This document shows, piece after piece, positions 31,115 to 59,204 of a stretch of 64,000 nt of DNA. The notes under the pieces were generated by a model. The model was not told where the DNA came from, made no database searches, and saw nothing but the letters and a program-made list of their open reading frames with translations. Position numbers and translations under genes: made by a program. Within the stretch, counting starts at the first letter, position 1; each line of letters begins with the position of its first letter. The stretch is from positions 206,522,001 to 206,586,000 of the forward strand of contig OX597814.1 in assembly GCA_951406725.2 (NCBI GenBank), written 5' to 3'. The DNA is from Octopus vulgaris (lineage: Eukaryota).

Positions 31115-31364
31115 AATAGTTTTTATAGGAAAGGAAGGTGAATATAGGTTAGAAAAGATTTCACTTTCATTTTTACCACTCCCCTCAATATACTTTATCT
31201 GGTTTTCTCCAATGGTGGCCACTAGTTGGTGTGGTTTTTCCCACAAACCTTCAGTTTCTGTGTACATGCACACATGCACGGACTTACCTTTGTGCAGATA
31301 GTATTTATTTGAGTCATATTATTGCAAAACCTGGCTGTTGTAAATTATGAGTTTGGTAACCACA

Positions 31365-33285: not shown

Positions 33286-33543
33286 TACCTTAGTCTGTAT
33301 GTAAGTACTGCAGAGAGACAGGTTAACAGAATATAGATAGATAGGAAGAGTAAAGTTTGTGTTGTGTCTGATACCCCATACTTGAAATAAGAGATAGGCC
33401 TTTGAGTAGGTACCCACGGACCAAAGAGGAGGAAAACCGATTTGGTTGAGTAAATTCCTAACTAAATTTTATTATATTATTTCTAACTAAATTATGGAAA
33501 CCATACGAAGGATTTTTCCAATGTATCATGTTTTTTTTAAAAT

Positions 33544-34342
33544 TATGGATGCTTCGAAAAGATCTAAGAAGTCACTATACTTTCATAAATTTCCTAGTGT
33601 AACAGGAGAGAATAACAGGTGGGGGCTTGTGGGGAAATGGGGATTCGGTTTCAAATCATAACTTACAAAGTTGGTAGCTATCTGCTACATAAGTATATTA
33701 TGTGTGTGTGTGTGTGCGTGTGTGTGTGTGTGTACACACGCATACTGAATTTTTGTGGAAAAAACACGCCAACAAGTGTGTGAGCGTACACAAACTGAAG
33801 AAAAACCATGCCAACTAGTGGCCACCATTGGAGAACACCAAGTATAGCGAGGGAAGTGTCAAAAATGAAAATGAAATCTTCTCTAACCTACATTCGACTT
33901 CATTTCCTATAAAAAAAACTATCTCCGGTTTTTCTTCTTTTGAAAAGTTGTTTTTTTTTTATGTCGTCTGTTTTAGATAATAATAAAACTTTATCACAAA
34001 GTTTTCTTGGAAAATAAATTGTATAAAAGAGGGCAGAGGGGAAGTGTTTTTTTCTGGGAAAACCATTGATGTCATACAAAGTTGCTGTTAAACCAATCGA
34101 CAGCTTAAAAACGATTAGATAAAGATTATTCAAGTTTCAGTTTTACTCAGAGTTGTTACGAGGTAAGTCTTCGTTTTACATCTTCCTAATTTAATTTTCT
34201 TTAATCCCGTCTCTCCATTGCTTTACAAATATTTCACAAAATCGCTTTCAATGCTTTTCACTACATTATAACTACGTGGATTTGTTGTTTCTTCTCCGTT
34301 TTCAGAATGTGTGTGTGTGTGTGTGTACGTACGTATTTCTAA
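33544..34342 (+). promoter_or_regulatory. Promoter/first-exon-like module, copy 3; candidate promoter of the PARP14-like gene
   Basis: IRF-like AAAAATGAAAATGAAA (33861), GAS TTCTTGGAA (34004) and TTCTGGGAA (34052), TATAAAAG (34022), GGGGAAGTG, TGATGTCA (34068), AACCAATCG (34091), AGTTTCAGTTTT (34133; includes an Inr-like TCAGTT) and AG|GTAAGT at 34162/34163. Confidence 0.55.
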
Positions 34343-34425
34343 GTGAAATTTTCCACAAATACCTTTCCGATGGGGTAGATTATGGCTGTATCGGAATTTA
34401 GGGTAATAAAAAGGTTGGCATAGTT

Positions 34426-34640
34426 AAAACTTCTATTTTTTTACATAAGTAATGAGAGCAAAAGAGACTAAGAGGAAGCGATTTTACGACGAGGTTTCAC
34501 TTTGAAGTCGGCCTGTGTGTGTTTGATGGGGTGTGGGAGACAGACAGTATGTTGTGTAAGTGAAGTGCTTCTGTTAGTGTGTGCGAAGAGACAGACATAC
34601 ATATACACATACACCGAGTAAAAAATTACGATGAATCGGC

Positions 34641-34672
<32 letters not shown>

Positions 34673-35126
34673 TAGATACATACACACACACACATACATA
34701 CATACATACACACATACTTACACACACACACACACATAGATACATACACACACACACATACATGCAGACATACATATACACATACACCGAGTAAAAAATT
34801 ACACTGAATCGACCATACATACATACACACATACATACATACACATACACACATACATAGATACATACACACACACATACATACATGCATACATACATAT
34901 ACACATACACCGAGTAAAAAATCAGTTATCTCTCTCTTTCACACATTACTCTCTCTGTCTCTTCGCACACACTAACAGAAGCACTTCACTTACACAACAT
35001 ACTGTCTGTCTCCCACACCCCATCAAACACACACAGGCCGACTTCAAAGTGAAACCTTCTCGTCATAAAATCGCTTCCTCTTAGTCTCTTTCGCTCTCAT
35101 TACTTATGTAAAAAAATAAAAGTTTT
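34426..35126. repeat. ~170-bp inverted repeat (34426-34595 and 34954-35126) enclosing CA-rich tandem units
   Basis: ttttttacataagtaatgagagc...gcgaagagacaga pairs with tctgtctcttcgc...ctctcattacttatgtaaaaaa. Confidence 0.9.
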
Positions 35127-35789
35127 TTACGGAAATCGACGGAAATCTGTGCTACTACATGCGAAACTTCGCCAAAAGGTTGTGTATCTGCACACATACA
35201 CACTAACATACATTATATATAAATATAAACATACACACGCACCCACACATATATTTTATTTTCGTGGCTGAGATTCAAAACGAAATTTAAGTCCTTCCAT
35301 GTCTGTTTCTTTCCTTAATGACCCTGTCAACTTACATTGTTCCACCACCATGTCACCTTAGGTCGTAAGGTGACTTTGCACCAGCCACAGATCTGGACGG
35401 TAGCCCCCAACAGGTTGTCATGTAGGAACCTTCAGATGTCCTCCACATATTTATAAGTAACCGTCTTTCTCATTACCTGGTGAGAATGTAGTCAATCTGA
35501 CTAGTGTAACCACCAGATTAGTAAGTGGACAGGTGACTTGGAGGTTTCCTGAAGTTAGTATTACAGATCATAAGATCATTTGCATCACAGAACTATATGC
35601 ATACACTTGCATATCTGTACGCCCACACGCACACATACACAGACACACACACGCGCGCGTACACACACACACGCACGCACACACGCACACACCCGCGCAC
35701 ACACACACGCACGCGCACACACACACATTTAAATGGGCATTCGGCATTCTTTCGATTTGGATATTTTATCTGTCATTGCTTCCTAGTTG

Positions 35790-36640
35790 GGATCTTTTCC
35801 TTTTGATAGCCAGTTTTCAACACAATTTCTAGTTAACTAAACAATTTGAAACTTCGTATACTGGTAGAATGTGTCAAAAGAAAACATTATTTTCACTTGG
35901 GTTTTTTGATAAATTTGTAATTTGTAAGTTTAACGTAGTTTAATTCTTCGAATTTTAACCAATGAATCGCCAGTATTTGAGCTGTGGTAATGTCGCCAAC
36001 AAAACTCCTGAAGATATGTTGAAAATAGAGCATCAGAAATTCCGTGCCTGTTGCAGTATTTGTTTTTGATAAATGAACTGAAGCGTCGTTTGGGTCTACG
36101 AAATTGAAACTGCGATTGACTGTAGAATGGTTTTGGAGCTGGTTGTAAGCTTGCCAACCTAGTTCCTGGAAGGACATGGCTATCAATTATGGGTAGCAAT
36201 GTGGCATCACTTCTGTCTGGTACAGGAACTAAAATACATCTCAGACTGTGGTATTCAACCATTCCTACAACCCAGTGACCAATCCAATATTGGCCATTGT
36301 AGTACTTCCTGTGCATAAATTTGGATTCATCAATCTCCACCACAACCCCTCCAATATGCATGAGATTTTTAATGCACCTCATGGCACAGATATCTTGAAA
36401 GTAATTGTACCAGTTTACTATGGCTTCACTAGACATCTTAACCTGTCACATAACAGTACACTGCTTGCAATCAATTTCAGCCCACCTGTACATCAATTTT
36501 GTAAGACGATTTAGTGATAGATGGGAACCAGAGAAAAAGGACTCCCGACTAATACACCGAAACCATTTGCATACAGAACACTTTCACATCTTCCCTTCAG
36601 AGACTTGACACTGCTTTACCAAGACCATAGCTTGGTTATA
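35790..36640 (-). mobile_element. Merlin (IS1016/ISXO2-like) DNA transposon: decayed transposase and one TIR
   Basis: C..C...ISRESFFSGSHLS, WYNYFQDIC, VVEIDESKF, WVVGMVE, VPDRSDATLLPII..HVLPGT, NHS.....NFVDP and YLQEFCWR; TIR GGATCTTTTCCTTTTGA at 35790 just 3' of the ORF. Confidence 0.85.
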
Positions 36641-36707
36641 GCACTCTAAGGAATTGTGGATTAATCCTAAATATACCAGGAACCGGATAGTTGAATCCAT
36701 ATCTGTA

Positions 36708-37190
36708 TCTCTTATTATAAAAGGCAGATTTTATCTGCCTCCCTTTGGGAGTTATACAAATCTACAATATAGCATTTCTTCAATTACAATTTACCTTGCA
36801 TTTTTAAGAGTACAATGCATCGCGTCATGCCAGCTCCAGTTTTTAAAATTTAAACTCCAGTTAAGCAAAATTTACAGAAAACTCACATTCTGGTGTGTGT
36901 GTCAAATGCTTTTCTTAGTCTGGTTTACACCACACGCAAACGCACACACACAGTGGGCAACGAATAAAATGAAACTAATTGACTTACTGTAGTGAGTGAT
37001 TCTTTCACTCTGCCTCCCACTTCTTCTTTCCACACAGACTCGCAAATATATAAATAAAATTGTAAGCTAACGTGCGTGTGTGTGAGTGGGTGTGTGTGGG
37101 TGTGCGCGTGTGTGTGTATGTTTGAGGGTGCGTGTGTGTGTGTGTGCGTGTGCGTGAGTGTGTGACAGGAAAGTTTTTTTACGACGAATA
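36708..37190 (+). mobile_element. Helitron-like 5' fragment
   Basis: A|TCTCTTATTATAAAAGGCAG start resembles the head at 38894; no 3' CTAG located. Confidence 0.4.
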
Positions 37191-37216
37191 TAACACCTAT
37201 ATCCAAGTAGCAGAAA

Positions 37217-37700
37217 GATAAGACAGTAAGGTGTGATTTGAGGGAGATTTGGCTGCTATTTCTACCATGTCTAGCTGCCATGTAGGGGTCTCCCTCATAG
37301 GCTCATACATACATATATACATAGATAAGACAGTAAGGTGTGATTTGGGGGAAATTTGGCTGCTATTTCTACCAGGTCTAGCTGCCATGTAGGGGTCTCC
37401 CTCATAGGCTCATACATACATATATACATAGATAAGACAGTAAGGTGTGATTTGGGGGAAATTTGGCTGCTATTTCTACAAGGTCTAGCTGCCATGTAGG
37501 GGTCTCCCTCATAGGCTCATACATACATATATACATAGATAAGACAGTAAGGTGTGATTTGGGGGAAATTTGGCTGCTATTTCTACCAGGTCTAGCTACC
37601 ATGTAGAGGTCCCCCTCATTGGCTCATATATATATATATACATACATAAGACAGTAAGGTGTGATTTGAGGGAGATTTGGCTGCTGTTTCTACCAGGTCT
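37217..37700. repeat. 107-bp tandem repeat, ~4.5 copies
   Basis: Unit gataagacagtaaggtgtgatttg...ctcataggctcatacatacatatatacata; ORF ends at 37388, 37495 and 37602 confirm the 107-bp period. Confidence 0.95.
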
Positions 37701-37789
37701 GTTAGGCCTTCTCATGTAAACTCAAGCTTTCTCATGCCTTCAACATATGACCAAAGCAGAGAATGTATTCTTTTATTCTTCTGCTTTTT

Positions 37790-37980
37790 CCAGCCATTGG
37801 TCTGTGGCCATGCTGGGGCAATGCCTTGAAGAATTGTAGTTTAATGAATCAACTCCAGTTTTATTTTTGTAAGCATTGTACTTATTCTATCTGTTTCCTT
37901 TGTCAAACCACTAGGTGACAGGGATGTAAACAAACCAACATTCGTTGTCAAGCAGTGGTGGAGGACAATCACAAGCACAG
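37790..37980 (-). mobile_element. SINE family A, degenerate
   Basis: ggccatgctggggca...tacttattctat...gttgtcaagc matches the family A 3' half. Confidence 0.6.
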
Positions 37981-38065
37981 ACACGCACACACACACACAT
38001 ACATGCATACACATATACACACATACATACATACATACATATATATATATGTGTGTATATATATA

Positions 38066-38324
38066 TTGCAGCGTGGAAGGTGTTTGTAAGCCATTTAAGA
38101 AACACGCAAAAACCGTTACATTCACTTCAACATTTAAATTTAATTTGCCAAAATATTTTCGTTGCTTTTAGACCGCGACCTGTTCACTGACAAAAATATC
38201 GTGCTAACAGGTCGCGGTCTCAAAGCGACGAAAATATTTTGACAAATTAAATTTAAATGTTGAAGTGAATCTAACGGTTTTTGTGTGTTTCTTAAATGGC
38301 TTATAAACACCTTCAACGCTGCAA
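38066..38324. repeat. Long palindrome (~119-bp arms, 21-nt loop)
   Basis: ttgcagcgtggaaggtgtttg...gaccgcgacctgtt [loop] aacaggtcgcggtc...aaacaccttcaacgctgcaa. Confidence 0.95.
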
Positions 38325-38396
38325 CTGTTTTCGTTCCAGCACACGATCTCAGATCAAGTCACTTGCTATGCAAGTACATCTCTGTAACTATATATA

Positions 38397-38438
<42 letters not shown>

Positions 38439-38498
38439 TAAAAACAGTAAGATAACAAAAGAAAGAAAGAGACCTCAATATTATGTAAATAGAGGAAA

Positions 38499-38893
38499 TC
38501 TTTATATATAAAAGTGAGGTTGTGTGTCTGTCTCCTACGATTTAGATTCCTAACTACTCCCACATTTTGCGGTGCAGTTTTACCAAAACCGGGTATCTTA
38601 TAGTCGTGATTCATATCGAGACCGTCTGGGTATTAGCGCGCGTCTACGATGAGTCTACGATTTAAAAAAAAAATTACCATCAATTTTTCCCATTTTTAAT
38701 CCATTTTTGACATATATAAGGGAAGTAACTCTCTAAAATTTATTATTAAATCTCAGAACGTAAATAGCTACAGTAACACCCCTCCCCCTTTGTGGTTAGC
38801 CATATTGAGATGGCTATTATACTTTACATCTCTAAAAATGCTTATATAATTATTTCCCTTACAAACCCGAGCAACGCCGGGCGATACTGCTAG
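38499..38893 (+). mobile_element. Complete 395-bp non-autonomous Helitron
   Basis: A|TC...cccgagcaacgccggg hairpin...CTAG|T, with no TSD. Confidence 0.9.
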
Positions 38894-39171
38894 TATATAT
38901 ATAAAAGGCAGGATATGTGTGTGTGTGTACACGAATGTAATTTATGCATGTCAACAAATTAGCACGCATGTCGCTCCAACTTTAGGAGAACATTTGTCAT
39001 GATCCTAGCTGCATTTTCGTCAAATTATTTTCCTCCGAGGCACTTGTGAATAGTGGTAAAAATAAATTTTCGACCATAACTTAACAATTTTCACAGCGGA
39101 GAAATCCACCATTGTTTACAAACATGAGTTAAGTCCCCTTCTAGCGACGGTGTAAAGAGAGGGTAGGAGAA

Positions 39172-39207
<36 letters not shown>

Positions 39208-39369
39208 GGAGATAACAGATTTTTAAAATTTCGCCTTTTTACTGAGTGATTGACAGGCAAAAACAGACAGCTGTTGTTATGTATGTATGTATGTGTGAAT
39301 AGCTTCAGTCACACACACACGAGCATGTATGCGTACAAAACATACGTATGCAATGTGTGTGTGTTGCCC

Positions 39370-39436
<67 letters not shown>

Positions 39437-40113
39437 ATATAAACAATATTTTCTCCGTTTCTCTACAACTAATTTCCAAATTAGCTGAATCCGTTGCTCT
39501 ACTTATAGCGATATATAGCTGGTTGTGCGTGAACATGGGAGAAAGCAGAGGTTACCAGAGCAAAAGACCTAAGTGTTGACTGTAGACACGCTCCTTCGCA
39601 AACGATCAGCTATTATTTTGTTTCAAGACTGTTCATGTTTTCGAAAGGAGAGATCTGACTCTCACATCTCTGCGGGAGAAGGTAGGCCTCTCTATTCCAC
39701 TTACAAAGCTTACGTCTGGATGTTTACAAATTTGCATTTTGTAAACAATGTTTTGAAACTGTCCATATTTTCGACAGGAGAGATCTGGTTCTTTTCAACG
39801 ATAATGTATACCAATTTTGATGTATTTTGTTCAAACTTGATGCCAACATTACTTAGGACTCATTGGATCTTTGAATGCTTTAAGTTCTCCAAAAACGAAA
39901 AAAAAAAAAAAAAAGATGAGGGGAAAAAATTGTTAAACCGTTTCTTTATGGGATTTCCCAATCAAATTGTCTGCAAAATTTCAACCGAAAGTTTACCAAT
40001 TTCAACAGATTTCACTCAAATTTGACGTCGATGTTACTTTGTTTGCTTTGAAATAAAGAGCTTGATTAGCTTAATAATCCTTAGTCCTGAGCAAAGCCAG
40101 GCTATACTGCTAG
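38894..40113 (+). mobile_element. Second non-autonomous Helitron, head-to-tail with the previous one
   Basis: Begins tatatatataaaaggcagg(tg)n and ends cctgagcaaagccagg...CTAG|T at 40110-40113. Confidence 0.7.
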
Positions 40114-41194
40114 TCATTTGTTATAACACAAATTTCGTCTAGTTGGTAATTCCTTTCGACCATATCATTAATGCCAATAACCGTTTCAACAATCCGATGT
40201 TATCTGGCCTCTTAGAATTAAGCAGTAGAGTTTGACGTGGGTGTGTAAAAGTTAAATTATGAACTTGCAAGACATGTCTGAGAGTTCAATGGAAAAGTTT
40301 TGCTGGTTCAGTAAACCTCATGTGCAAAACGCTTAGCAAATCAAACTGTTCAGAATAGAAGAAGAATCAGTGAAGAAGCCAGAAAAGCCACCTACAACAA
40401 AACAAAACCGTTGCATATGGTCAAAGTAAATCTTTTTAAAAAAAAATAACCATCTAATAAGACAGTTCTTTTTTTCTCTCTTCTTCTTTAAAAGCATTTA
40501 ACAACAGAAGGCAGTTTTTCTTCTCTTTTTCCTTTCTTTTTCTGCAATGGCCTTTCTCGGTCACAAGTGGATGACCATCATGTATGTATGTATATCATAA
40601 TTCAGTTTATTTCAAGATTTCTTACCAATGGAGAAAGAACCAGTTTCTAACCTAAATCCAAGGTTCCTTTATTGGAATTTCAACATCAACAACAGGGTAG
40701 TTTTGGTTGTTGTGTCTGTATATATGTATGTATGTGCATATTTGTATGTTTTATTTTATGTATGAATTCTCATGCATATACTTACATATCTAGACATGCT
40801 CATATATATTTAAATGATAAACTTCTGGAAAGTTTTACAGACTTTTACAGTTTCAGTGATGGACTGGATATGTAGTCTTGGAATTAGCTTTCTCCTGTCT
40901 GGTTTTGAGAAACCTTGTATGTATATATGTATGTGTGTATATATGTATGTATGTATGCTTGTATATGTATATATGTACGTACATACTTTTCATAAAGAAT
41001 CTAAGCATGCTGCTTGAAAATAAATGGGAAAAACTTGGTCTGCAATGTTTGCGGTCCTGTATGTTTGTTAAGAACAGGACTCGTTAGTCACTAACAGATC
41101 TGCAAGTGTAAAGTACAAGGTAGCTTCATGCACACAATGTTCCTAAAGATCAGGAATGGTTTTCCTCGGTCACGAGTGGATGGCCATCATCATC

Positions 41195-41234
<40 letters not shown>

Positions 41235-42169
41235 CCATCATCATGTACATATACAATTACGTATGTATGTATGTTATGTATGTGTGTATGTAGGTATGCT
41301 AGTATGTTATGAATTTATATATGTATGTTATGTCTGTATGTAGGCATATATGAATGTATTTATATATGTATGTATGAATGTATGTATGTATGTATGTATG
41401 TATGTATGTGAAATATATGTTACATATGTATGCACATATATATGTTGTGTATGTTATAAATTTATCATTCACACATGGTAAGTGAATAATATTCTTAAGG
41501 TCAACATTTACTCACTTGCAACTAATTTTAGGTTTTATAACTAACTCAGTTTTTAACCAAATTAGATGATGTTTACATTTTTAAATTGATCTTATCCTAA
41601 GCTACATTTTCAGTTATAAAACTTGAAAATTGCTTTGGTAGAAGAAAAGTTTGAGTTAAATATGTGAGGTCAAAAACAGGAGAATAACGCCTGAAATCGA
41701 CTTTGTGACCAAATATTTTTCTTTTTAAGAAATCTATATTTTATTTTAACTTGTATGATAGATTTTGGTGAGAGGAATCTATCCATGTTAGTTATATGCA
41801 AAAATATTCAGTAGATTTAGATTAATAACTGAAATCGACTTTGACTCCAAATATTCTTCTTTCAAAAGAAAACTATATTTAAATTCAACTTTTCTTGACT
41901 ACAGGAATCCTATGATGCTAATTATATATATAAGAAATTTAAATAAAATACTATTGGGGCCAAATGTGCCGAAAACAGTGATAATGCCTAAAAGCAAATT
42001 CAAAACCTAAGCATTTAGATTTTGTGTAAAAATGTTTTCATTTAGCTCATATGATAGAACTCATCAAGACGAGTGTCTTGGTGCTAATCTTTTCAAAAAA
42101 TATTCAAAATGAGAAAAGTTGAATGTGCTCAATGAATGTAAAACTATTTTCAAGTAATATTATTACTTA

Positions 42170-45100
42170 CTAGCAGAGATACCTGGCATTGCTCAAGATT
42201 ATAATGGCATAGTTTGTACATATATATTGCAGTTATGTTGAAACAGGTGATGTGGGAAAGTGAAGCATTGACCATGAAGCATTTGTGGAGTAGATGTTAA
42301 AGCTTTGCACAAATGACAAGAATATATGCACAGATGACAAGAAAGGTCACCGATTTGAACAGAATTATCATTTTTATAAGAATGCGATGGATCATATCTG
42401 AAAGAAGCTCCAGGTGTTGTGAAGAACGAATTTGTATGTGACCTGATTCTGAGAGCTATTCTATTGAACCTCTGTGTAATCTGGTGAGCTAAACGTTTTA
42501 ATGATTCAGCATTAAGTGCTGCAGCTGCATGCCTTTGCTGATCTTCAGAAAGTCTCATCTCCTTTCTGTCTTGAGACTCCATCTGATGTCCAGCAGAATG
42601 CCTTTGTTGATCTTGGGAAAGTCTCATCTCCTTTCTGTCTTGAGACTCCATCTGATGTCCAGCAGAATGCCTTTGCTGATCTTCAGAAAGTCTCATCTCC
42701 TTTCTGTCTTGAGACTCCATCTGATGTCCAGCAGAATGCCTTTGTTGATCTTGGGAAAGTCTCATCTCCTTTCTGTCTTGAGACTCCATCTGATGTCCAG
42801 CAGAATGCCTTTGCTGATCTTCAGAAAGTCTCATCTCCTTTCTGTCTTGAGACTCCATCTGATGTCCAGCAGAATGCCTTCGTGTCTGAAAGTCTTCAGA
42901 TCTCTGATCAGAAAGTCTCATCTCCTTTCTGTCTTGAGACTCCATCTGATGTCCAGCAGAATGCCTTTGTTGATCTTGGGAAAGTCTCCTTTCTGTCTTG
43001 AGACTCCATCTGATCTCCTTTCTGTCTTGAGACTCCATCTGATGTCCAGCAGAATGCCTTTGTTGATCTTCAGAAAGTCTCATCTCCTTTCTGTCTTGAG
43101 ACTCCATCTGATGTCCAGCAGAATGCCTTTGCTGATCTTCAGAAAGTCTCATCTCCTTTCTGTCTTGAGACTCCATCTGATGTCCAGCAGAATGCCTTTG
43201 CTGATCTTCAGAAAGTCTCATCTCCTTTCTGTCTTGAGACTCCATCTGATGTCCAGCAGAATGCCTTTGCTGATCTTCAGAAAGTCTCATCTCCTTTCTG
43301 TCTTGAGACTCCATCTGATGTCCAGCAGAATGCCTTTGCTGATCTTCAGAAAGTCTCATCTCCTTTCTGTCTTGAGACTCCATCTGATGTCCAGCAGAAT
43401 GCCTTTGCTGATCTTCAGAAAGTCTCATCTCCTTTCTGTCTTGAGACTCCATCTGATGTCCAGCAGAATGCCTTCGCTGATCTTCAGAAAGTCTCATCTC
43501 CTTTCTGTCTTGAGACTCCATCTGATGTCCAGCAGAATGCCTTTGTTAATCTTCAGAAAGTCTCATCTCCTTTCTGTCTTGAGACTCCATCTGATGTCCA
43601 GCAGAATGCCTTTGCTGATCTTCAGAAAGTCTCATCTCCTTTCTGTCTTGAGACTCCATCTGATGTCCAGCAGAATGCCTTTGCTGATCTTCAGAAAGTC
43701 TCATCTCCTTTCTGTCTTGAGACTCCATCTGATGTCCAGCAGAATGCCTTTGTTGATCTTCATAAAGTCTCATCTCCTTTCTGTCTTGAGACTCCATCTG
43801 ATGTCCAGCAGAATGCCTTTGCTGATCTTCAGAAAGTCTCATCTCCTTTCTGTCTTGAGACTCCATCTGATGTCCAGCAGAATGCCTTTGTTGATCTTGG
43901 GAAAGTCTCATCTCCTTTCTGTCTTGAGACTCCATCTGATGTCCAGCAGAATGCCTTTGTTGATCTTCAGAAAGTCTCATCTCCTTTCTGTCTTGAGACT
44001 CCATCTGATGTCCAGCAGAATGCCTTTGTTGATCTTCAGAAAGTCTCATCTCCTTTCTGTCTTGAGACTCCATCTGATGTCCAGCAGAATGCCTTTGTTG
44101 ATCTTGGGAAAGTCTCATCTCCTTTCTGTCTTGAGACTCCATCTGATGTCCAGCAGAATGCCTTTGTTGATCTTGGGAAAGTCTCATCTCCTTTCTGTCT
44201 TGAGACTCCATCTGATGTCCAGCAGAATGCCTTTGTTGATCTTCAGAAAGTCTCATCTCCTTTCTGTCTTGAGACTCCATCTGATGTCCAGCAGAATGCC
44301 TTTGTTGATCTTCAGAAAGTCTCATCTCCTTTCTGTCTTGAGACTCCATCTGATGTCCAGCAGAATGCCTTTGTTGATCTTCAGAAAGTCTCATCTCCTT
44401 TCTGTCTTGAGACTCCATCTGATGTCCAGCAGAATGCCTTTGCTGATCTTCAGAAAGTCTCATCTCCTTTCTGTCTTGAGACTCCATCTGATGTCCAGCA
44501 GAATGCCTTTGTTGATCTTGGGAAAGTCTCATCTCCTTTCTGTCTTGAGACTCCATCTGATGTCCAGCAGAATGCCTTTGTTGATCTTCAGAAAGTCTCA
44601 TCTCCTTTCTGTCTTGAGACTCCATCTGATGTCCAGCAGAATGCCTTTGTTGATCTTCAGAAAGTCTCATCTCCTTTCTGTCTTGAGACTCCATCTGATG
44701 TCCAGCAGAATGCCTTTGTTGATCTTCAGAAAGTCTCATCTCCTTTCTGTCTTGAGACTCCATCTGATGTCCAGCAGAATGCCTTTGCTGATCTTCAGAA
44801 AGTCTCATCTCCTTTCTGTCTTGAGACTCCATCTGATGTCCAGCAGAATGCCTTTGTTGATCTTGGGAAAGTCTCATCTCCTTTCTGTCTTGAGACTCCA
44901 TCTGATGTCCAGCAGAATGCCTTTGCTGATCTTCAGAAAGTCTCATCTCCTTTCTGTCTTGAGACTCCATCTGATGTCCAGCAGAATGCCTTTGTTGATC
45001 TTGGGAAAGTCTCATCTCCTTTCTGTCTTGAGACTCCATCTGATGTCCAGCAGAATGCCTTTGCTGATCTTCAGAAAGTCTCATCTCCTTTCTGTCTTGA

Positions 45101-47249
45101 GACTCCATCTGATGTCCAGCAGAATGCCTTTGTTGATCTTGGGAAAGTCTCATCTCCTTTCTGTCTTGAGACTCCATCTGATGTCCAGCAGAATGCCTTT
45201 GTTGATCTTCAGAAAGTCTCATCTCCTTTCTGTCTTGAGACTCCATCTGATGTCCAGCAGAATGCCTTTGCTGATCTTCAGAAAGTCTCATCTCCTTTCT
45301 GTCTTGAGACTCCATCTGATGTCCAGCAGAATGCCTTTGTTGATCTTGGGAAAGTCTCATCTCCTTTCTGTCTTGAGACTCCATCTGATGTCCAGCAGAA
45401 TGCCTTTGTTGATCTTGGGAAAGTCTCATCTCCTTTCTGTCTTGAGACTCCATCTGATGTCCAGCAGAATGCCTTTGTTGATCTTGGGAAAGTCTCATCT
45501 CCTTTCTGTCTTGAGACTCCATCTGATGTCCAGCAGAATGCCTTTGTTGATCTTCAGAAAGTCTCATCTCCTTTCTGTCTTGAGACTCCATCTGATGTCC
45601 AGCAGAATGCCTTTGTTGATCTTCAGAAAGTCTCATCTCCTTTTGTCTTGAGACTCCATCTGATGTCCAGCAGAATGCCTTTGTTAATCTTCAGAAAGTC
45701 TCATCTCCTTTCTGTCTTGAGACTCCATCTGATGTCCAGCAGAATGCCTTTGCTGATCTTCAGAAAGTCTCATCTCCTATCTGTCTTGAGACTCCATCTG
45801 ATGTCCAGCAGAATGCCTTTGTTGATCTTGGGAAAGTCTCATCTCCTTTCTGTCTTGAGACTCCATCTGATGTCCAGCAGAATGCCTTTGTTGATCTTGG
45901 GAAAGTCTCATCTCCTTTCTGTCTTGAGACTCCATCTGATGTCCAGCAGAATGCCTTTGTTGATCTTCAGAAAGTCTCATCTCCTTTCTGTCTTGAGACT
46001 CCATCTGATGTCCAGCAGAATGCCTTTGTTGATCTTCAGAAAGTCTCATCTCCTTTCTGTCTTGAGACTCCATCTGATGTCCAGCAGAATGCCTTTGCTG
46101 ATCTTCAGAAAGTCTCATCTCCTTTCTGTCTTGAGACTCCATCTGATGTCCAGCAGAATGCCTTTGTTGATCTTGGGAAAGTCTCATCTCCTTTCTGTCT
46201 TGAGACTCCATCTGATGTCCAGCAGAATGCCTTTGCTGATCTTCAGAAAGTCTCATCTCCTTTCTGTCTTGAGACTCCATCTGATGTCCAGCAGAATGCC
46301 TTTGTTGATCTTGGGAAAGTCTCATCTCCTTTCTGTCTTGAGACTCCATCTGATGTCCAGCAGAATGCCTTTGCTGATCTTCAGAAAGTCTCATCTCCTT
46401 TCTGTCTTGAGACTCCATCTGATGTCCAGCAGAATGCCTTTGCTGATCTTCAGAAAGTCTCATCTCCTTTCTGTCTTGAGACTCCATCTGATGTCCAGCA
46501 GAATGCCTTTGTTGATCTTGGGAAAGTCTCATCTCCTTTCTGTCTTGAGACTCCATCTGATGTCCAGCAGAATGCCTTTGCTGATCTTCAGAAAGTCTCA
46601 TCTCCTTTCTGTCTTGAGACTCCATCTGATGTCCAGCAGAATGCCTTTGTTGATCTTGGGAAAGTCTCATCTCCTTTCTGTCTTGAGACTCCATCTGATG
46701 TCCAGCAGAATGCCTTTGCTGATCTTCAGAAAGTCTCATCTCCTTTCTGTCTTGAGACTCCATCTGATGTCCAGCAGAATGCCTTTGTTGATCTTGGGAA
46801 AGTCTCATCTCCTTTCTGTCTTGAGACTCCATCTGATGTCCAGCAGAATGCCTTTGTTGATCTTCAGAAAGTCTCATCTCTTTTCTCTCTTGAGGTCCTA
46901 TATGATGTGTTGCAGCATGTGTTTGGTGATCTTTGGAAAGTGTCATGTCCCTTCTTCCCTCTTGAGACTCCATCCGATGTCCAGCAGCATGCCATTGCTG
47001 ATGTTCAGAAAGTCTCATCTTCTGTCTTCAGACTCCATTTGATGCGTCGCAGCATGCGTTTGGTGTTCTTTGGAAAGTGTCATGCCCCTTCTGTATTGAG
47101 ACTACATCTGACATGCTGCAGCATGCCTTTGCTAATCTTGAGAACATCTCATGTTGCTTATCTCTTGAGACACTCGCCTTCAGTTTTCTGCACTCCCCCT
47201 TGCTTTGTAGGTGTTTCTGGAGAGGTTATGTTTTTTTCTTTGGGGGCAT
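42170..47249 (-). mobile_element. Internally deleted Helitron carrying a hugely expanded STPR-like coding repeat
   Basis: ATG at 47249 (MPPKKK, then NLSRNTYKAR in another frame); 23-aa repeats; post-repeat ASFRYDPSHSY...VQIGDLS..C..CKAL typical of Helitron N-termini; 3' end ttgagcaatgccagg...CTAG|T at 42170. No Rep or helicase domain; 5' TC terminus not located. Confidence 0.8.
42527..47170 (-). repeat. 69-bp tandem array, ~63 homogeneous plus ~4 degenerate units, encoding ESQDRKEMRLS(E/Q)DQQRHSAGHQM
   Basis: Direct inspection and ORFs 42199-43521, 43546-45636 and 45777-47018; broken by TAA at ~43546 and ~45684, a 1-bp deletion at ~45642 and TAG at 45777. Confidence 0.97.
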
Positions 47250-47981
47250 ATTTTTTTTTAATATTAGAAACAAAAAATTTTGTACATAGAAAAAAAATAT
47301 ACATTAATCTCTGTTTTTGTAAGCAGTTGTATGTTTATAGTACGTCAATATGTTTTTATGCGGTGTAAATTAACCAAATACGAGCAAATTGTAAATACCC
47401 TGCATCTGCTGCAATAATTCTGAACTGTTAATTGAATGGTAGATGTGTATTTTCATATATCCTGGACATGCCACCTAATTGTTTTTTGTCAAGAGTTTCA
47501 CCTCCAGCCGTTCTCATCACATACGTATTAGGTTGTTTCACATGAAACGTCTCATTTTTAATTACTTATTATTTCAGTCATTTAAAAAATCAATTATGTA
47601 TACGTTGCATCTAATTTTGACTCTTTTTCTTTCCCAACAATATTGGTATACAAAATTTGTACCCACAGACCTTATGAAAATGATAACAACCAAACTATGT
47701 TGAGTGATTTTCTCGTATGATTACAAACTGGGTTACTCTGCCACAGAGGCTCTATGGTAAATGTTTTGTTTGCCGCAAAATGAGTAAGACAAAATACTAT
47801 GTGCTGCTTCAGTTCTTCAGAAAACAGACGCATACACATCAATAGCCATCCGAAAACATCAGAAACATTCAGACATGCCAAAAGAATAACATTTAAAAAT
47901 CTAAATCAAATGAAAGAGGATCAGGGAAAAAATGGCACAGGATATGAAATTCGACTAAATATAAGAAAACCCAACATAAAA

Positions 47982-48140
47982 TCTTCTTCTTCTTCTTCTT
48001 CTTCTTCTTCTTCTTCTTCTTCTTCTTCTTCTTCTTCTTCTTCTTCTTCTTCTTCTTCTTCTTCTTCTTCTTCTTCTTCTTCTTCTTCTTCTTCTTCTTC
48101 TTCTTCTTCTTCTTCTTCTTCTTCTTCTTCTTCTTCTTCT
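47982..48140. repeat. Perfect (TCT)53 microsatellite at the RTE truncation point
   Basis: Direct count over 159 bp. Confidence 0.95.
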
Positions 48141-50520
48141 ATTAACCTTCCTTTGATATTGCTGCACCTCTTATGTGTCCATAGCTTACACTGGGTACAT
48201 CTTAAGGAGTTTCTACCCACACCTTTTCTACAGATCAAGCAGGGCCACCTACCTGAAGGGGTGTGTGATGTGTTCACCTTCCTACTTACTAGAACTTTGG
48301 TCTTTGCTACATTGACTCTAAGGCCTTTTGATTCTAAACCTAGCTTCCACACACGAAATTTCTTCTCTAGTTCCAGTAGTGATTCTGCTACGAGGGCCAG
48401 GTCATCAGCATAGAGGAGCTCTCAGGGGCAACCCCTCTTGAATTCCTCTGTTATTGTCTGGAGGACTATGATGAATAAAAGGGGACTGAGGGCTGAACCT
48501 TGGTGGACCCCTACTTCTACCCAGAATTCTTCACTATACTCATTGCCAACCCTAACCTTACTAACAGCATCTCTGTTTAGGGCCTGTACAGCCCTTATTA
48601 ACCATTTGTCTATCTCCAGTTTCCACATCACCCACCAGATAAGGGATCGGGGGACCCTGTGAAAGGCTTTCTCCAAGTCCACAAAGGCTAAGTATAGGGG
48701 TTTATCTTTGGCTAGGTATTTCTCCTGCAGTTGTCAAACCAGGAATATGGCATCAGTGGTGCTTCTGCCTGGAACAAAACCGAACTGTATCTCATCTAAG
48801 CAGACTCTCACCCTAATGAGATGGGCTATGATCCCCTCTATCACCTTCATCACCTGATCCAGCAGTTTGATTCCTCTGTAGTTATTTCTGTCTAGAGCAT
48901 CACCTTTACCCTTGTAGCAGTAGACTATGGTGCTGCTATGCCAGTCATTGGGTATGACTCCGTTATGAACTACCTGGTTTACAATGTGGGTGACTAGGCC
49001 ATAGCCCACACCACCAGATATTTTAAGCATCTTAGCAGTGATTCCTGATCAGGTAGGGGCTTTTCCTGGCTTCATACCCTTAATTGCTTTATCTACCAAG
49101 ACACTGTCTATTGGGATATCTGGTCCCTCTACTGGGTCAACATTTGGCAGGCTTTCCTCCTCCCATTCATTCTCCATATTCAGCAGTCTCTCATAATGGC
49201 TTCTCCAAGCCTCTTTCTTTTCAGAATCACTAAAGGCAAGTGCACCATCATCCATTCGAACACATTTCTTTCCTGTGACATCACAATTTTCTCTCACACA
49301 CTCTCTTGCAATCCGAAATACTTTGGCAAACTTCTTCTTTTCCACTTCTCCCTTGGCCACGTACACCTGCCTCCCAGCCTCCCTTTTGGCTACGTGGTAC
49401 AGTTCCCTGCTACCCACATCCTTCCAGGCTTTCCAGGCCTGTTTTTTTGCTCTAATGGCTTTGTCTACCGTTCTATTCCACCACCACGTAACTCTGGGTC
49501 TGGAAGGGACTTTGCACCATCTGCAGACTTGGTCAGTGGCACTCAGCAAGCTGTCCCGTAGGAATTCCTAGCTACTTTCTATGTCCGACGTCTGAAGCTC
49601 CTCCTCCCTCTCATCAAATTTCTTGATGAGGATGTCCCTAAATCTCTGACCATGTGAAGGGTTCTTTAGCTTCCAAATCCTTCTTTTCTGGATTGGTCTG
49701 TTTCTTGGAGTCCTTCTGGCTTCAAGCTTAAAGTCACTAATGATTAGCCTATGCTGAGGGATACATTCTTCACCCAGGAGGGTCTTTGTATTTAAGAGCG
49801 ACCCTGCATCCTGCTATCTGGTGAGGATGAAGTCTATTTGGCTAGCGGAATCTCCTGACTGATAGGTTATCAGGTGGCAGTCTGGCTTCCTGAAGTTAGT
49901 GTTGCAGATTAAAAGGTTACATGCATCACAGAATTCCAGTAGCCTCGTGTACCCCAGTGAAGATTCCAGATACCTGCCTAACATGCCCATTAAAGTATCT
50001 AGCCACAAAGATGAGGTCATTTCCACTCATCTTTGAGGTAGCCTGTAGAAGGGTTTCATAAAAGTGGTCCTTCTGATCATTTGGTAACCCCGCATGTCGG
50101 GTGTAGGCAGAGATAATTGTTGCTGTGCTGTTCTGTAGGGCTAGCCTGATCTTAAGCACTCTATCGCATACCCTGACAACCTCTATGACCTTTTCCACCC
50201 ATTTCTCTTCAAGGAGTATGCCAACATCCCCTACACCATCCATGTTACCTTGCCAGAAGACCTTATACCTATGTGCCTTGCCTGTGAGGACCCTAGCTGA
50301 AGCCCCTCTCCATCTTACCTCTTGTATGCAGCATACATCAACCCATCTCCTTTCAAGCATCTCTACAATCTCACTAGATCTACCTTTCAGTGTGCCAACA
50401 CTGACAGTGCCAACTCTGAAAACTGGGAAGGTAATGTGGAGTGAGGTTTGGGGAGGAGGGATGTTATTTAGTGCCTGAAAAGAAGAGGGTTGTTGTGGTG
50501 TTCGTCTTTTAGGCATGTTT
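48141..50520 (-). mobile_element. RTE-clade LINE (APE endonuclease plus RT), 3'-truncated, decayed
   Basis: VGTVSVGTL, DVCCIQEVRW, SQIDFILTR, TWWWN, YKGKGDALDRNNYRGIKLL, QFGFVPGRSTTDAIF, DLEKAFHRVPR, GVHQGSALSPLLF, LLYADDL and GLRVNVAKTK, then a Cys-rich insert WPCLIC...CTQCKLWTHKRC. Confidence 0.92.
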
Positions 50521-52084
50521 CGTTGATCTCCCTTTCGACCTGAAAACATTCAAGCATGTTTGATTGCTGCCCTTACTGGAGGTAGGAGCTAGTGTTAACA
50601 GCGTTGTAAGCAGTTATCGTTTCTGCCAACTCCTCCTCCCGAATGGTGTTGTTCTCTATATTACCTGCACTCTCTCTTTCTCTATCTCTCTCCCTCTCTT
50701 TCTCTACCTGCCCCCCTCTCTCTATCTCTCTCCTCCTTCTCTACCTCTCTCCCTCTCTTTCTCTATCTCTCTACTGTGACAAGTGCAACCAGGTTCGGCT
50801 ATATTTCATTCCATTTTCGTTGTCTAGAAATATGCCAACAACTACCCATTTCCTTGGCCTTGGGAAGTAAATGTAAAAGCTATTTGGCTGTCTGTGCATG
50901 CTTGTTTCCTTTCTCTTTGTCTGAACCCTTCCCCGCTGGTGGTACCCGCCATTATACCTGCAAGCCCCTCTATTTGGACAAACTAGACCAGCTTTCAGCT
51001 GACACCCCGCCCCTGGAATATCCATATTTCTGCTACACCGCTTAAATCTACATCATTCAATGACCATAATGCTTATGCTTACAACGCTGCTAACAATAGC
51101 TCCTACCTCCTGTAAATTTCAACTATATATATATATCTAAATTAAATTAGAGATAAAACCACTATTATGCAAATCAAACAGTGAAAAACATAAACCAAAA
51201 CATAAAAATAAATATAATTAATATAATATACAAAATATATAAAATATAAAATTATTTAAATTTATATTTATAAATAAATTTATATTTATAAATTTTTAAT
51301 TTATATTTATAAATTTTAAATTTATATTTATAAATTTTTATATTTTTTTATATTATTTTGAAAATTTTAAATTTATATATTTTTAAACTTTTAATTTTTA
51401 AATTTATTATTATTATTTTCATTTTTATTTTTCTTAATTAATTAATTAATTTTTTATTTATTCATTTATTTTTTTATTAAAACGTATTAAAAAGTTCAAT
51501 ATGATATAATAAGTATTTACTTATTACTTATTATATTATATTAAACTTTTTAATAGCCTTTCTTAAGAAGTGAAACCATTAGACTTTTATTTTTTTCGTT
51601 TGAAGCGATCACTTCGTAAACAAATTTACGCAGATTGTAAACAAACACAAAATGGGGGTTCAAAGTTTGAAAAATTTGTGAAGCAAATACTGGGCACTGC
51701 ATGGATTTAGTTTTTATACAGGGAAAATAATGTTAGTCAGCATGGCCTAGGGAACGATGTGGTTTGAAATTTATCATTTCCATACCATAACCAGGGTCGT
51801 ATATTATTTTTTGACCTATTTCTTTAGTTCGGTCAAACTTGCAGTGGATTCCAGTAAAGAAATAAATAAATAGAAATATATATATATATATCTATGTATA
51901 GATAAATAGATAAATAAAATAAAATACAAATTAAGATGAGTACAAAGATAATCTTAATATATAAGGCTGCCAAACAAATACAGAGAGAGAGAGAGAGAGA
52001 AGAAGAGAGATAGATATAAACAGATATACATGTATTTGTATACGTATAAATACATATGTACATACATACAAATATACATACATA

Positions 52085-52490
52085 GCAACATATGGATGCG
52101 AGACCTAGACACTAAAGAAAGCTGACCAGAGGATAATTAATGCATTCAAGCTTTGGTGTTGGAGAAGACTTTTACGGATTCTATGGACAGCGAGGGTCAC
52201 CAATGGAGTAGTTATTAAGCAGATCAAGCCGAAAATGTCGCTAGAAGCTAGGATCACCATTGGCATATTTCGGTCATATTATGCGGAGAAAATCCCTGGA
52301 GAAGGACATCATGCTCAGAATGGTCAGTGGCAAGAGAGGAAGAGGCCGACCAAGAACCTGCTGGCTTGACATCATCAAGAGGGATACTGGAATGGACATA
52401 GCCAATCTGAAAGAAGCGGCTCAGGATAGAACTGACTGGAGGACACTGATCCAACGAGTGACCGAGAGTCGATTTCGACTGAGTGGATAG
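52085..52490 (+). mobile_element. BovB-like RTE 3' end with (GATA)n tail
   Basis: YGCET, INAFKLWCWRRLLRI.WT, YFGHIMRR.SLEK.IM..MVSGKRGRGRP...WLD.I and AQDR..WR. Confidence 0.9.
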
Positions 52491-52608
52491 ATAGATACAT
52501 ACATACAAATACATACATACGAACATCCATGAAAATAGATACATACAAACATATATAGATGATAATAATAATAATGATGATGATGGTAACAATAATGATA
52601 ATAATAAT

Positions 52609-52649
<41 letters not shown>

Positions 52650-52987
52650 AGATAGATAGATAGTAAATGAGCTATAGGAGTGAAATATGAATGATGTAAA
52701 ATGGGGAATTAGGTTTTGCTAGGTTGATTCAAGAGATTGCTTATCTGAATGACTTTGCAGCCTTTACTCCATGTGGTAAGCTGTCTATTTTAAAAATAAC
52801 TGGGTGAACTTTTGAAAAACTTTGGCTGTTACTTCTAGCATATCTGGACTGTTTGAAGGCTACATGTACTTCAGGTTTACATCAGGCATGTTAAGTGGAT
52901 GTTTATGATGTGGATAGCACAGTATTGTTACATGGATGGTGAGTAACTTGTATTTGTTTAGCATTAAATCTTGGTTTTATTTTGCAG

Positions 52988-53185
52988 GAATATCTGTCTC
53001 GAATATGGGAGGAGATGAAGAGGGCAGAACGATATTGGTGTCAGGAGTCCCAACTGATTTCTGTTTGGAAGCCATTCAGTCTTATTTTGAGAACAAGAAG
53101 ATATCAAGTGGAGGACCTATTAAAGGAATCCCAGAACGGATCCAAGATTCTGGGGAAGTTATTATCACATTTGAATCGGAAAAAG
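52988..53185 (+). CDS. Exon of a PARP14/PARP10-like gene (N-terminal RRM-type domain)
   Basis: Acceptor ttttattttgcag| and donor AAG|gttaga; 198 bp, phase 1-1. Protein (MGGDEEG)RTILVSGVP......IQSYFENKKISSGGPI.......GEVIITFESE matches the YFEN..sGGG...itF signature of the RRMs in PARP14/PARP10 and relatives (NMI/IFI35, DTX3L). Confidence 0.75.
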
Positions 53186-54265: not shown

Positions 54266-54314
<49 letters not shown>

Positions 54315-54930: not shown

Positions 54931-54949
54931 TAGAGGAATAATGCAGTAA

Positions 54950-56939: not shown

Positions 56940-56972
<33 letters not shown>

Positions 56973-59200: not shown

Positions 59201-59204
59201 GTAA

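What the first reader, a model, noticed from the sequence alone, without database searches (positions are those of the whole stretch)
33544..53185. Candidate STAT/IRF-responsive promoter and first exon for a PARP14-like gene
Seen: within ~300 bp upstream of a perfect AG|GTAAGT donor (34162/34163) lie two GAS sites (TTCNNNGAA), IRF/ISRE-like motifs, an ETS-like GGGGAAGTG, a CRE-like TGATGTCA, CCAAT and TATAAAAG. The next recognisable plus-strand host exon, ~19 kb away, encodes a PARP14/PARP10-type RRM. Known: vertebrate PARP14, PARP9 and DTX3L are interferon-stimulated through GAS/ISRE elements, and molluscs have JAK/STAT and IRFs but no recognised interferon. Inference: an invertebrate interferon-like regulon wired to a PARP14-like effector.
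Basis: partly seen in the sequence, partly recalled or inferred. Interest (0 to 1): 0.75.

Follow-up and report, generated by a model that had tools for sequence, protein, structure and literature searches.

The report
Repeated promoter of octopus PARP14-like genes
This is most likely the shared start region (promoter plus a short first exon) of a family of octopus genes related to the antiviral enzyme PARP14; it is present three times in this stretch of DNA and carries sequence motifs like those that interferon-type signalling uses in vertebrates, but whether infection switches it on is untested.

Summary
All listed motifs, the donor (34162|34163) and the exon (52988-53185) are present; the exon peptide is 83-92% identical to Octopus PARP14-like proteins. 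B is followed on its own strand by the family's 35-nt start-codon exon (3581-3547), so two oppositely oriented copies each point at a different PARP14-like exon. That makes 'promoter and non-coding first exon of an Octopus PARP14-like paralogue family' likely (about 0.8). A and B are 97% identical in a 775-bp core but 78% in the flanks, suggesting gene conversion, and B has triplicated an 82-bp two-GAS unit (five intact GAS sites). STAT/IRF control is plausible but unproven (about 0.55): the motif cluster has a 1-19% whole-window chance rate, a similar cluster lies in a nearby transposase relic, C lost one GAS site, and the ISRE-like motif overlaps an initiator-like one. The A-to-52988 splice is unverified; the start-codon exon is missing from that intron. 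Interferon-like IRF signalling in molluscs and clustered invertebrate PARP14 duplicates are already published.

The parts
33546..34320 (+). Copy A core: putative proximal promoter, non-coding first exon and start of intron 1; 97.1% identical to copy B
   Evidence: 706 of 727 aligned positions identical to B; homology to C continues to 34417, where an inverted-repeat element 34426-35126 interrupts it
33286..33545 (+). Upstream flank of A, collinear with B but only about 78% identical (old paralogy)
   Evidence: 124 of 160 at 33286-33455 versus 15921-15757; 46 of 59 at 33483-33545
33867..33876 (+). IRF element GAAAATGAAA; B and C read GAAAGTGAAA (closer to the recalled IRF1 consensus), so A carries a derived change in the spacer
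33935..33944 (+). TTC-N4-GAA site (STAT6-type spacing, label recalled), present in all three copies; common in this window (25 sites outside the blocks), so weak
34004..34012 (+). GAS site 1, TTCTTGGAA; intact in two of three B units, lost in C
34022..34029 (+). TATAAAAG; conserved in C, but 117 bp upstream of the initiator-like motif, so its role as a TATA box is uncertain
34038..34046 (+). ETS-like GGGGAAGTG; intact in one of three B units, deleted in C
34052..34060 (+). GAS site 2, TTCTGGGAA; B has TTCTGGGAA and TTCTCGGAA (twice), C has TTCTCAGAA: changes fall in the free middle
34067..34074 (+). CRE-like TGATGTCA, identical in A, B and C
34093..34097 (+). CCAAT, identical in A, B and C (motif is common: 111 sites outside the blocks)
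34133..34144 (+). ISRE-like AGTTTCAGTTTT overlapping an initiator-like TCAGTT (34137-34142; candidate start A34139). C changes the ISRE G but keeps TCAGTT
   Evidence: initiator consensus recalled from Drosophila, not tested in octopus
34139..34162 (+). Putative non-coding exon 1 (5' end uncertain: about 34139, or about 34052 if TATAAAAG is used), ending at donor GAG|GTAAGT
   Evidence: 34121-34168 is 42 of 45 identical in C; 3 of 5 AGGTAAGT sites in the window are these three donors
52988..53185 (+). PARP14-like RRM exon (family exon 3), phase 1-1, open, with in-frame ATG at 53005
14198..15181 (-). Copy B of the block; donor 14347|14346; IRF-E at 14806
14449..14697 (-). 82-bp unit (GAS1, TATAAAAG, ETS-like, GAS2) repeated 3.0 times in B; five intact TTCYNRGAA sites
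   Evidence: (93% matches)
3547..3581 (-). 35-nt start-codon exon (family exon 2): strong acceptor, ATG at 3559, encodes MAEK plus one base, phase-1 donor; 10,765 nt downstream of the B donor
   Evidence: tblastn 12 of 14 identical to P0006 (E 0.016) and 13 of 14 to P0013 (E 0.05); splice sites read directly; boundary matches MAEKG|IS and MAEK|DAEN junctions in Octopus models
29817..30070 (-). Copy C, proximal part; donor 29841|29840; keeps GAS2, CRE-like, CCAAT, TCAGTT; lost GAS1 and the ETS-like site
31120..31240 (-). Copy C, distal part with IRF-E GAAAGTGAAA at 31168, pushed about 1,050 bp away by an insertion
30069..31116 (.). Terminal-inverted-repeat element (109-nt arms, 94% complementary) with a nested SINE-like repeat, inserted in promoter C
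29209..29397 (-). Copy C, intron-1 remnant homologous to 34209-34417, after a SINE-like insertion at 29401-29785

Best explanation
The block is the promoter and short non-coding first exon shared by members of an expanded Octopus PARP14-like gene family. Family layout: exon 1 (non-coding, ends at GAG|GTAAGT), exon 2 (35 nt, start codon, phase 1), exon 3 (first RRM, phase 1). B drives a minus-strand paralogue (exon 1 at 14347, exon 2 at 3581-3547, the rest beyond the left edge). A drives a plus-strand paralogue that has lost or lacks exon 2 and would splice to 52988 and start at ATG 53005. C is an older, partly decayed copy, either an upstream alternative start for B or an orphan. Transcription most likely starts near 34139; CCAAT, CRE-like and ETS-like sites give basal activity, while paired GAS sites (-135, -87) and an IRF element (-272) make it inducible by the mollusc JAK-STAT and IRF arms of nucleic-acid sensing, as in the composite GAS+ISRE promoter of human PARP14. 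A and B are old duplicates whose promoter cores were recently homogenised, after which B tripled its GAS pair. SHOWN: motifs, three copies, identity profile, exon 2 and exon 3 identity and phases. INFERRED: transcription start, every splice, gene conversion, STAT/IRF binding, induction. My odds: family promoter/exon 1 about 0.8; A splices to 52988 about 0.55; STAT/IRF-inducible about 0.55.
For: Two oppositely oriented copies each lie upstream of a different PARP14-like exon on their own strand. Exon 2 phase fits exon 3, and 5 of 17 Octopus models carry the exon-2 peptide at exactly this junction (P0006, P0008, P0012, P0013, P0015; first 110 residues inspected); 3 of 17 begin at the exon-3 Met (P0005, P0007, P0009). 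Core-promoter and donor positions 30 of 30 identical in C against 238 of 306 background (p 8e-4). Eight of the window's 13 strict GAS sites fall in the three blocks (the copies are not independent). IRF-E core 8 of 8 in all copies and GAS2 changes confined to the middle bases. Full cluster with ISRE-like site in 2 of 150 simulated windows, with a donor in 0 of 150. Pairwise homology ends differ between copies and continue as collinear 78% remnants past different insertions, as paralogous gene ends do. Human PARP14 promoter needs adjacent GAS and ISRE (PMC10287828 passages); oyster IRFs activate ISRE reporters (PMC5557890 passages); Aplysia co-expresses DTX3L, PARP12, IRF1 and STAT5B orthologues in an antiviral module (PMC8195618 passages).
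Against: No transcript, start-site or chromatin data were available. Exon 2 is not detectable in 34163-52987 (nhmmer, mismatch scan and mini-exon scan) and no exon after 53185 was found with 17 Octopus models, so gene A may be a fragment. Immune motif cores are 24 of 28 conserved in C (p 0.24; 26 of 28, p 0.04, with the other gap placement), C lost GAS1, the ETS-like site and the ISRE G. A GAS pair plus IRF-E arises in 28 of 150 simulated windows and once for real in a transposase relic at 35944-36171. The ISRE-like motif may simply be an initiator. In the Aplysia passages PARP14 was listed in a different module (darkgreen) from the one holding IRF1 and STAT5B. I could not confirm from the Octopus haemocyte paper that STAT or IRF transcripts were found (figure legend only).
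Confidence: 0.55

Rival explanations
1. The block is the family's promoter and first exon, but it is constitutive or driven by other inputs; the GAS and IRF-like words are by-products of T-rich/A-rich promoter sequence and the ISRE-like word is an initiator. STAT input, if any, could be developmental or haematopoietic and not antiviral.
For: Core motifs are conserved in C far better than immune motifs (30 of 30 versus 24-26 of 28); C lost GAS1 and the ISRE G but kept TCAGTT; GAS pairs are common by chance (140 of 150 simulated windows).
Against: Both A sites fit the stricter TTCYNRGAA (0.3% in local shuffles); IRF-E core is intact in all three copies; the genes are of a family that is interferon-inducible in vertebrates (PMC13224862 section 9).
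Confidence: 0.22
2. B is the working promoter; A is an orphan duplicate that does not splice to 52988. The exon at 52988 is a stranded piece of a broken paralogue, or takes its 5' exons from elsewhere.
For: No exon 2 between A and 52988; no later exon within 10.8 kb; A-B homology stops about 180 bp after the donor and the two introns share only dispersed repeats; about 10.2 of 18.8 kb of the A intron is repeat-derived by my hand-drawn spans; many database models of this family are short fragments (152-229 aa).
Against: A keeps all motifs and a perfect donor, with 4 A-specific against 6 B-specific substitutions, so no sign of faster decay; A retains downstream homology to C that B lacks; exon 3 is open with intact splice sites and its own ATG; no stronger donor (AG|GTRAG) lies in between.
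Confidence: 0.15
3. The block is a low- or medium-copy mobile or captured fragment (for example carried by a Helitron) and its position upstream of PARP14-like exons is coincidence.
For: Three copies in 20 kb, in both orientations, in a repeat-rich window; Helitron-like coding relics near 32080-32340 and 5760-5960 (label recalled, not scored); genome-wide copy number could not be checked.
Against: No shared ends between copies; printed end sequences are not complementary; no other match to 33740-34200 in the window; other elements have inserted into it; the best-conserved stretch is the donor region; each orientation has a matching PARP14-like exon downstream.
Confidence: 0.08

Closest known systems
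Human PARP14 composite GAS+ISRE promoter (also DTX3L, APOL6, UBE2L6, TRIM69; PMC10287828)
   Same: GAS and IRF-type elements within 300 bp at the 5' end of an RRM-macro-ART PARP gene; that paper reports variable spacing and orientation among composite genes (passages).
   Different: In human PARP14 the GAS is directly adjacent to the ISRE and the ISRE dominates; here there are two GAS sites 48 bp apart (five in B), the IRF element is 137 bp upstream of GAS1, and the ISRE-like word is one base off and overlaps a likely initiator. No sequence homology to the human promoter is claimed; binding and induction are untested. Table S4 of that paper was not seen.
Oyster interferon-like response (CgIRF1/2/8, CgIFNLP, cGAS/STING-TBK1-IRF; PMC8218723, PMC5557890, PMC13524488, PMC5869526)
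   Same: Mollusc IRFs that bind or activate ISRE-type sites and a poly(I:C)-induced set of ISG homologues.
   Different: Those passages concern bivalves and mostly mammalian reporter promoters; none seen mentions a PARP14 promoter or a cephalopod cis-element.
Clustered invertebrate PARP14-like paralogues (lancelet, sponges; PMC13224862 section 9)
   Same: Local duplication of PARP14-like genes: 17 Octopus clusters found, 11 and 5 sharing one longest-contig length each in O. vulgaris and O. sinensis.
   Different: Octopus models show RRM, macro and PARP domains but no WWE or PARP14-type KH match in the 3 scanned. Promoter-restricted homogenisation and GAS-unit amplification were not mentioned in the section read.

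Membership tests
Octopus PARP14-like paralogue family (exon at 52988) | High identity to annotated family members over the exon | tested here: met
   83-92% identity, 9 of 57 candidates, all named Octopus proteins
Octopus PARP14-like paralogue family (exon at 52988) | Same exon boundaries and phase as relatives | tested here: met
   Phase 1-1, junctions G|IS and K|DAEN match models
Octopus PARP14-like paralogue family (exon at 52988) | Start-codon exon 2 between exon 1 and exon 3 | tested here: not met
   Absent from 34163-52987; present for copy B at 3581-3547
Octopus PARP14-like paralogue family (exon at 52988) | Downstream exons (further RRMs, macro, ART) in this gene copy | tested here: inconclusive
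   None in 53186-64000; may lie beyond the window
PARP14 / macro-PARP | N-terminal RRMs | tested here: met
   RRM_PARP14_1 and _3 above cut-off in relatives P0002, P0005, P0007; the single exon is below cut-off
PARP14 / macro-PARP | Macrodomains plus C-terminal ART domain | tested here: met
   In relative P0007: Macro E 3.8e-39 (2 stretches), PARP E 1.8e-15. Shown for relatives only, not for the window's gene copies
PARP14 / macro-PARP | WWE domain and KH repeats as in human PARP14 | tested here: not met
   No WWE or KH family at E up to 0.01 in 3 of 17 models scanned; precomputed lists show WWE only in the two sea-anemone hits. Models may be incomplete; hence 'PARP14-like', not 'PARP14 orthologue'
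PARP14 / macro-PARP | Mono-ADP-ribosyltransferase triad without the catalytic glutamate | tested here: inconclusive
   WHGT and YGxGVYF motifs seen in relatives; third position judged only from a recalled alignment
PARP14 / macro-PARP | Orthology by phylogeny | not tested
   No tree built; no vertebrate sequences were fetched
Composite GAS+ISRE interferon-stimulated promoter | GAS consensus near the 5' end | tested here: met
   2 in A, 5 in B, 1 in the proximal part of C
Composite GAS+ISRE interferon-stimulated promoter | IRF element / ISRE near the GAS | tested here: inconclusive
   GAAANNGAAA present in all three copies; the closer ISRE-like word has a mismatch and overlaps an initiator-like motif
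Composite GAS+ISRE interferon-stimulated promoter | Motifs conserved above background | tested here: inconclusive
   24 of 28 (p 0.24) or 26 of 28 (p 0.04) against 238 of 306
Composite GAS+ISRE interferon-stimulated promoter | STAT/IRF occupancy, induction, loss on mutation | not testable with these tools
   Needs ChIP, RNA-seq and reporter data
RNA polymerase II promoter with first exon | Consensus donor with no matching upstream acceptor role, followed by family exons in the same orientation | tested here: met
   AG|GTAAGT in all three copies; B then exon 2, A then exon 3. Upstream acceptor use was not separately scored
RNA polymerase II promoter with first exon | Mapped transcription start | not testable with these tools
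   No CAGE, RACE or ATAC data
Transposable element | Defined common ends, terminal repeats or target duplication | tested here: not met
   Ends differ between copy pairs; end sequences not complementary; one search showed only the 25 longest of 247 and of 61 inverted pairs
Transposable element | High genome-wide copy number | not testable with these tools
   No octopus genome collection was available

The most novel reading that the evidence does not exclude
Octopus PARP14-like genes form a STAT/IRF-driven, interferon-independent antiviral cluster whose composite GAS+IRF promoter logic matches human PARP14 (inherited from the bilaterian ancestor or re-evolved), and the cluster tunes its response through the promoter itself: paralogues overwrite each other's promoter cores by gene conversion and raise STAT-site dose by tandem amplification (one, two and five GAS sites in C, A and B).
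Probability: 0.25. Interest if true: 0.7.

Novelty: new member of a known kind. Interest (0 to 1): 0.42.

Why it matters
If inducible, this gives a native cephalopod promoter, in three natural variants with one, two and five GAS sites, for testing whether STAT/IRF control of PARP14-type effectors predates interferon and what ligand drives it in octopus. It would also be an example of concerted evolution and site amplification acting on the promoter of an immune gene family. If not inducible, it is still a useful annotation: the missing non-coding first exon and start-codon exon of a poorly modelled Octopus gene cluster. My searches (open-access full text and bioRxiv only) listed no paper on this promoter; the two papers listed for PARP14 plus octopus were a skin-mucus proteome and a database paper.

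Tried and rejected
Search for a second RRM exon in the window (tblastn and phmmer over 2,041 six-frame segments): only the known exon. Search for exon 2 downstream of A or between C and B: nhmmer, ungapped scans (next best 21 of 35) and a mini-exon scan gave 6 candidates, of which only 3581-3547 resembles the family; the 'MAVK' candidate at 29056-28969 lies in a dispersed repeat and was rejected. PDB sequence search: best hit a PARP10 RRM at E 0.039, no better than ribosomal eL14 at 0.041, so uninformative. Rfam: nothing in the blocks; one 28S fragment elsewhere. NF-kB-like words: 0 in the three blocks. Short-protein search gave 1 of 1 candidate, an unnamed 87-aa ORF running into the intron, uninformative about exon 1. 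Accession-level look-up of the relatives could not be made, so the species and exact gene are not fixed; the peptide is identical to none of the representatives. The Nematostella immune-cell paper had no occurrence of 'motif', 'PARP' or 'ISRE'. No paper on mollusc initiator consensus appeared among 20 of 35 listed. Allelic misassembly as the origin of A and B was considered and is disfavoured by 78% flanks around the 97% core. Structure prediction, complex prediction and prokaryotic, phage or plasmid collections were not used as they do not bear on the question; metagenome and viral collections stayed unchecked. My first notebook entry had exon and donor coordinates off by one; the second entry corrects them.


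Full report
Source and setting. The window is repeat-rich animal DNA without Ns. The exon peptide places it in Octopus: 9 of 57 candidates pass E 0.001, all named O. vulgaris or O. sinensis proteins (seven PARP14-like or PARP10-like, two uncharacterised) at 83-92% identity. A second search with residues 1-300 of the longest multi-domain relative returned 14 of 1,624 candidates: 12 Octopus and 2 sea-anemone proteins at 26%. Together these are 17 Octopus clusters; 11 share one longest-contig length in O. vulgaris and 5 share one in O. sinensis, which suggests but does not prove a single chromosomal cluster. The species is not fixed.

The observation. Pfam gives RRM_PARP14_3 at E 4.9e-4, below the curated cut-off, as expected for part of a domain. 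Relatives carry PARP14-type RRMs, macrodomains and a PARP domain, but no WWE or KH match in the 3 of 17 scanned, so PARP14-like is the right label.

Self-comparison shows the block three times: A on the plus strand, B on the minus strand at 15181-14198, and C on the minus strand in three pieces between 31240 and 29209, split by an inverted-repeat element and SINE-like repeats (SINE label recalled). A and C are head to head; C is 15 kb upstream of B in the same orientation. tblastn of the relatives also finds a short match on the minus strand at 3583-3542 (12 of 14 residues, E 0.016; 13 of 14, E 0.05). Read directly it is a 35-nt exon, 3581-3547, with a strong pyrimidine tract, ATG at 3559 and a phase-1 donor. 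Five of 17 Octopus models contain this peptide at exactly that boundary, joined either to the RRM exon or to the next one (first 110 residues inspected). So the family layout is non-coding exon 1, start-codon exon 2, RRM exon 3. B points at an exon 2 (10,765-nt intron) and A points at an exon 3 (18,825-nt intron). Two opposite copies each followed by a family exon is the main reason to accept the block as the family's 5' end.

What weakens the A-to-52988 link. No exon 2 is detectable in that intron, the A and B introns share only dispersed repeats beyond the first 180 bp, and no later exon appears before 64000. A direct splice would still give a protein starting at 53005, as in 3 of 17 models, and no AG|GTRAG donor lies in between. 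Gene A may be exon-2-less, truncated or a pseudogene.

History of the copies. A and B are 97.1% identical (706 of 727) over 33546-34320 but 77.5-78% in the collinear upstream flanks (124 of 160; 46 of 59), close to the A-C level of 83.1% (468 of 563). The simplest reading is an old duplication with recent conversion of the promoter core; a short recent duplication onto an old paralogous site is the same thing in effect. Since then A gained 4 and B 6 private substitutions, and B tripled an 82-bp unit holding both GAS sites, giving five intact sites. Ends differ between each pair and no terminal repeats were seen, which argues against a discrete transposon; genome-wide copy number could not be checked.

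Are the immune motifs meaningful? For: both A sites fit TTCYNRGAA (0.3% of 20,000 local shuffles), the IRF element core is intact in all copies, GAS2 varies only in its middle bases, and a GAS pair with IRF-E and ISRE-like sites arose in 2 of 150 simulated windows. Against: a loose GAS pair arose in 140 of 150 and a pair plus IRF-E in 28 of 150; a real chance cluster sits at 35944-36171 inside an ISXO2-like transposase relic (1 of 1,166 control windows); C lost GAS1, the ETS-like site and the ISRE G. In A versus C, TATAAAAG, CRE-like, CCAAT and donor positions are 30 of 30 identical against a background of 238 of 306 (p 8e-4), while the immune cores are 24 of 28 (p 0.24), or 26 of 28 (p 0.04) with the alternative gap placement around GAS2. 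The conservation thus supports a promoter and first exon more firmly than it supports STAT/IRF control. C may be decaying, which blunts the test.

Where it starts. TCAGTT at 34137-34142 matches the initiator consensus I recall from Drosophila and is kept in all three copies; the word is common (70 sites in the window) and I found no mollusc data on it. If A34139 is +1, CCAAT is at -46, CRE-like -72, GAS2 -87, ETS-like -99, TATAAAAG -117, GAS1 -135 and IRF-E -272, exon 1 is 24 nt and has no upstream ATG. If TATAAAAG is the TATA box, the start falls on GAS2 and exon 1 contains a 17-codon upstream ORF. I prefer the first, which also makes the ISRE-like word suspect.

Mechanism committed to. Nucleic-acid sensing or a cytokine activates octopus IRF and STAT; they bind the IRF element and the GAS pair and raise transcription from a basal CCAAT/CRE-type promoter; exon 1 splices to the start exon and yields an RRM-macro-ART mono-ADP-ribosyltransferase acting in innate defence. 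Motifs, copies and exons are shown; start site, splicing, binding, induction and enzyme activity are inferred. Overall confidence 0.55.

Comparison with the literature. Human PARP14 and DTX3L are composite GAS+ISRE genes, and mutating both sites in PARP14 abolished the interferon response (PMC10287828: abstract and passages; its Table S4 not seen). Clustered PARP14-like duplicates are reported for lancelet and sponges (PMC13224862: passages and whole section 9). Oyster IRFs activate ISRE reporters and an IFN-like protein and ISG response are described (PMC5557890 passages; PMC13524488 passages; PMC5869526 passages; PMC8218723 abstract). Aplysia has a co-expression module with IRF1, STAT5B, DTX3L and PARP12 orthologues, with PARP14 listed in another module (PMC8195618 passages). 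An Octopus PARP14-like protein was more abundant in mucus of aquarium-kept animals (PMC11431876 passages). The Octopus haemocyte paper gave only a figure legend naming STAT and IRF (PMC4199593 passages). PMC13319465 passages held nothing relevant; PMC4038475 was seen as a search listing only. So an invertebrate interferon-like regulon and invertebrate PARP14 expansions are known; this particular promoter, its three variants and the conversion and amplification pattern did not appear.

Verdict. Observation confirmed, interpretation partly supported and extended. New member of a known kind; interest 0.42. Most novel reading not excluded: promoter-level tuning of a STAT/IRF-driven PARP14 cluster without interferon (probability 0.25, interest 0.7).

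Noticed in passing
window 42522-47152: 69-bp tandem array of about 60 or more copies at 95% matches with long open frames on both strands; a diverged, inverted 2.5-unit relative lies at 57437-57608.
   Followed up: no
window 35933-36445 (-): ISXO2/IS1595-like transposase relic (Pfam E 1.7e-5) that by chance holds two GAS words and an IRF element; used as a control.
   Followed up: partly
window 20038-22418 and 23074-23173: Degenerate element with zinc-finger-, Myb- and RT-like words (R2-like, label recalled; Pfam found nothing for the two frames scanned), bounded by 196-bp direct repeats at 97%, near a 100-bp 28S rRNA fragment (Rfam 55.5 bits).
   Followed up: partly
window 32080-32340 (-) and 5760-5960 (+): Coding relics resembling Helitron-type proteins (resemblance recalled, not scored).
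   Followed up: no
window 47921-50612 (-): Degenerate LINE with reverse transcriptase (RVT_1 E 4.7e-11) inside the putative intron of gene A, interrupted by a perfect (TCT)53 repeat.
   Followed up: partly
window 8541-9124 and 16838-17422: 585-bp direct repeat at 98.5% identity, one copy on each side of block B; could be a recent element or LTR pair.
   Followed up: no
window 34426-35126: Element with about 170-bp terminal inverted repeats (96.5%) that ends the A-C homology.
   Followed up: partly
window 53060-53062: The RRM exon encodes Cys where eight of nine relatives have Arg and one has His; may be CpG decay or relaxed selection.
   Followed up: no
proteins P0012 and P0015: Two Octopus models join the start exon directly to the exon after the first RRM exon, suggesting skipping or loss of that exon in some paralogues.
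   Followed up: no
window 58361-58915 and 61129-61970: Inverted pair of Penelope-like relics with a GIY-YIG match (E 2.1e-5; family label recalled) downstream of the RRM exon.
   Followed up: no
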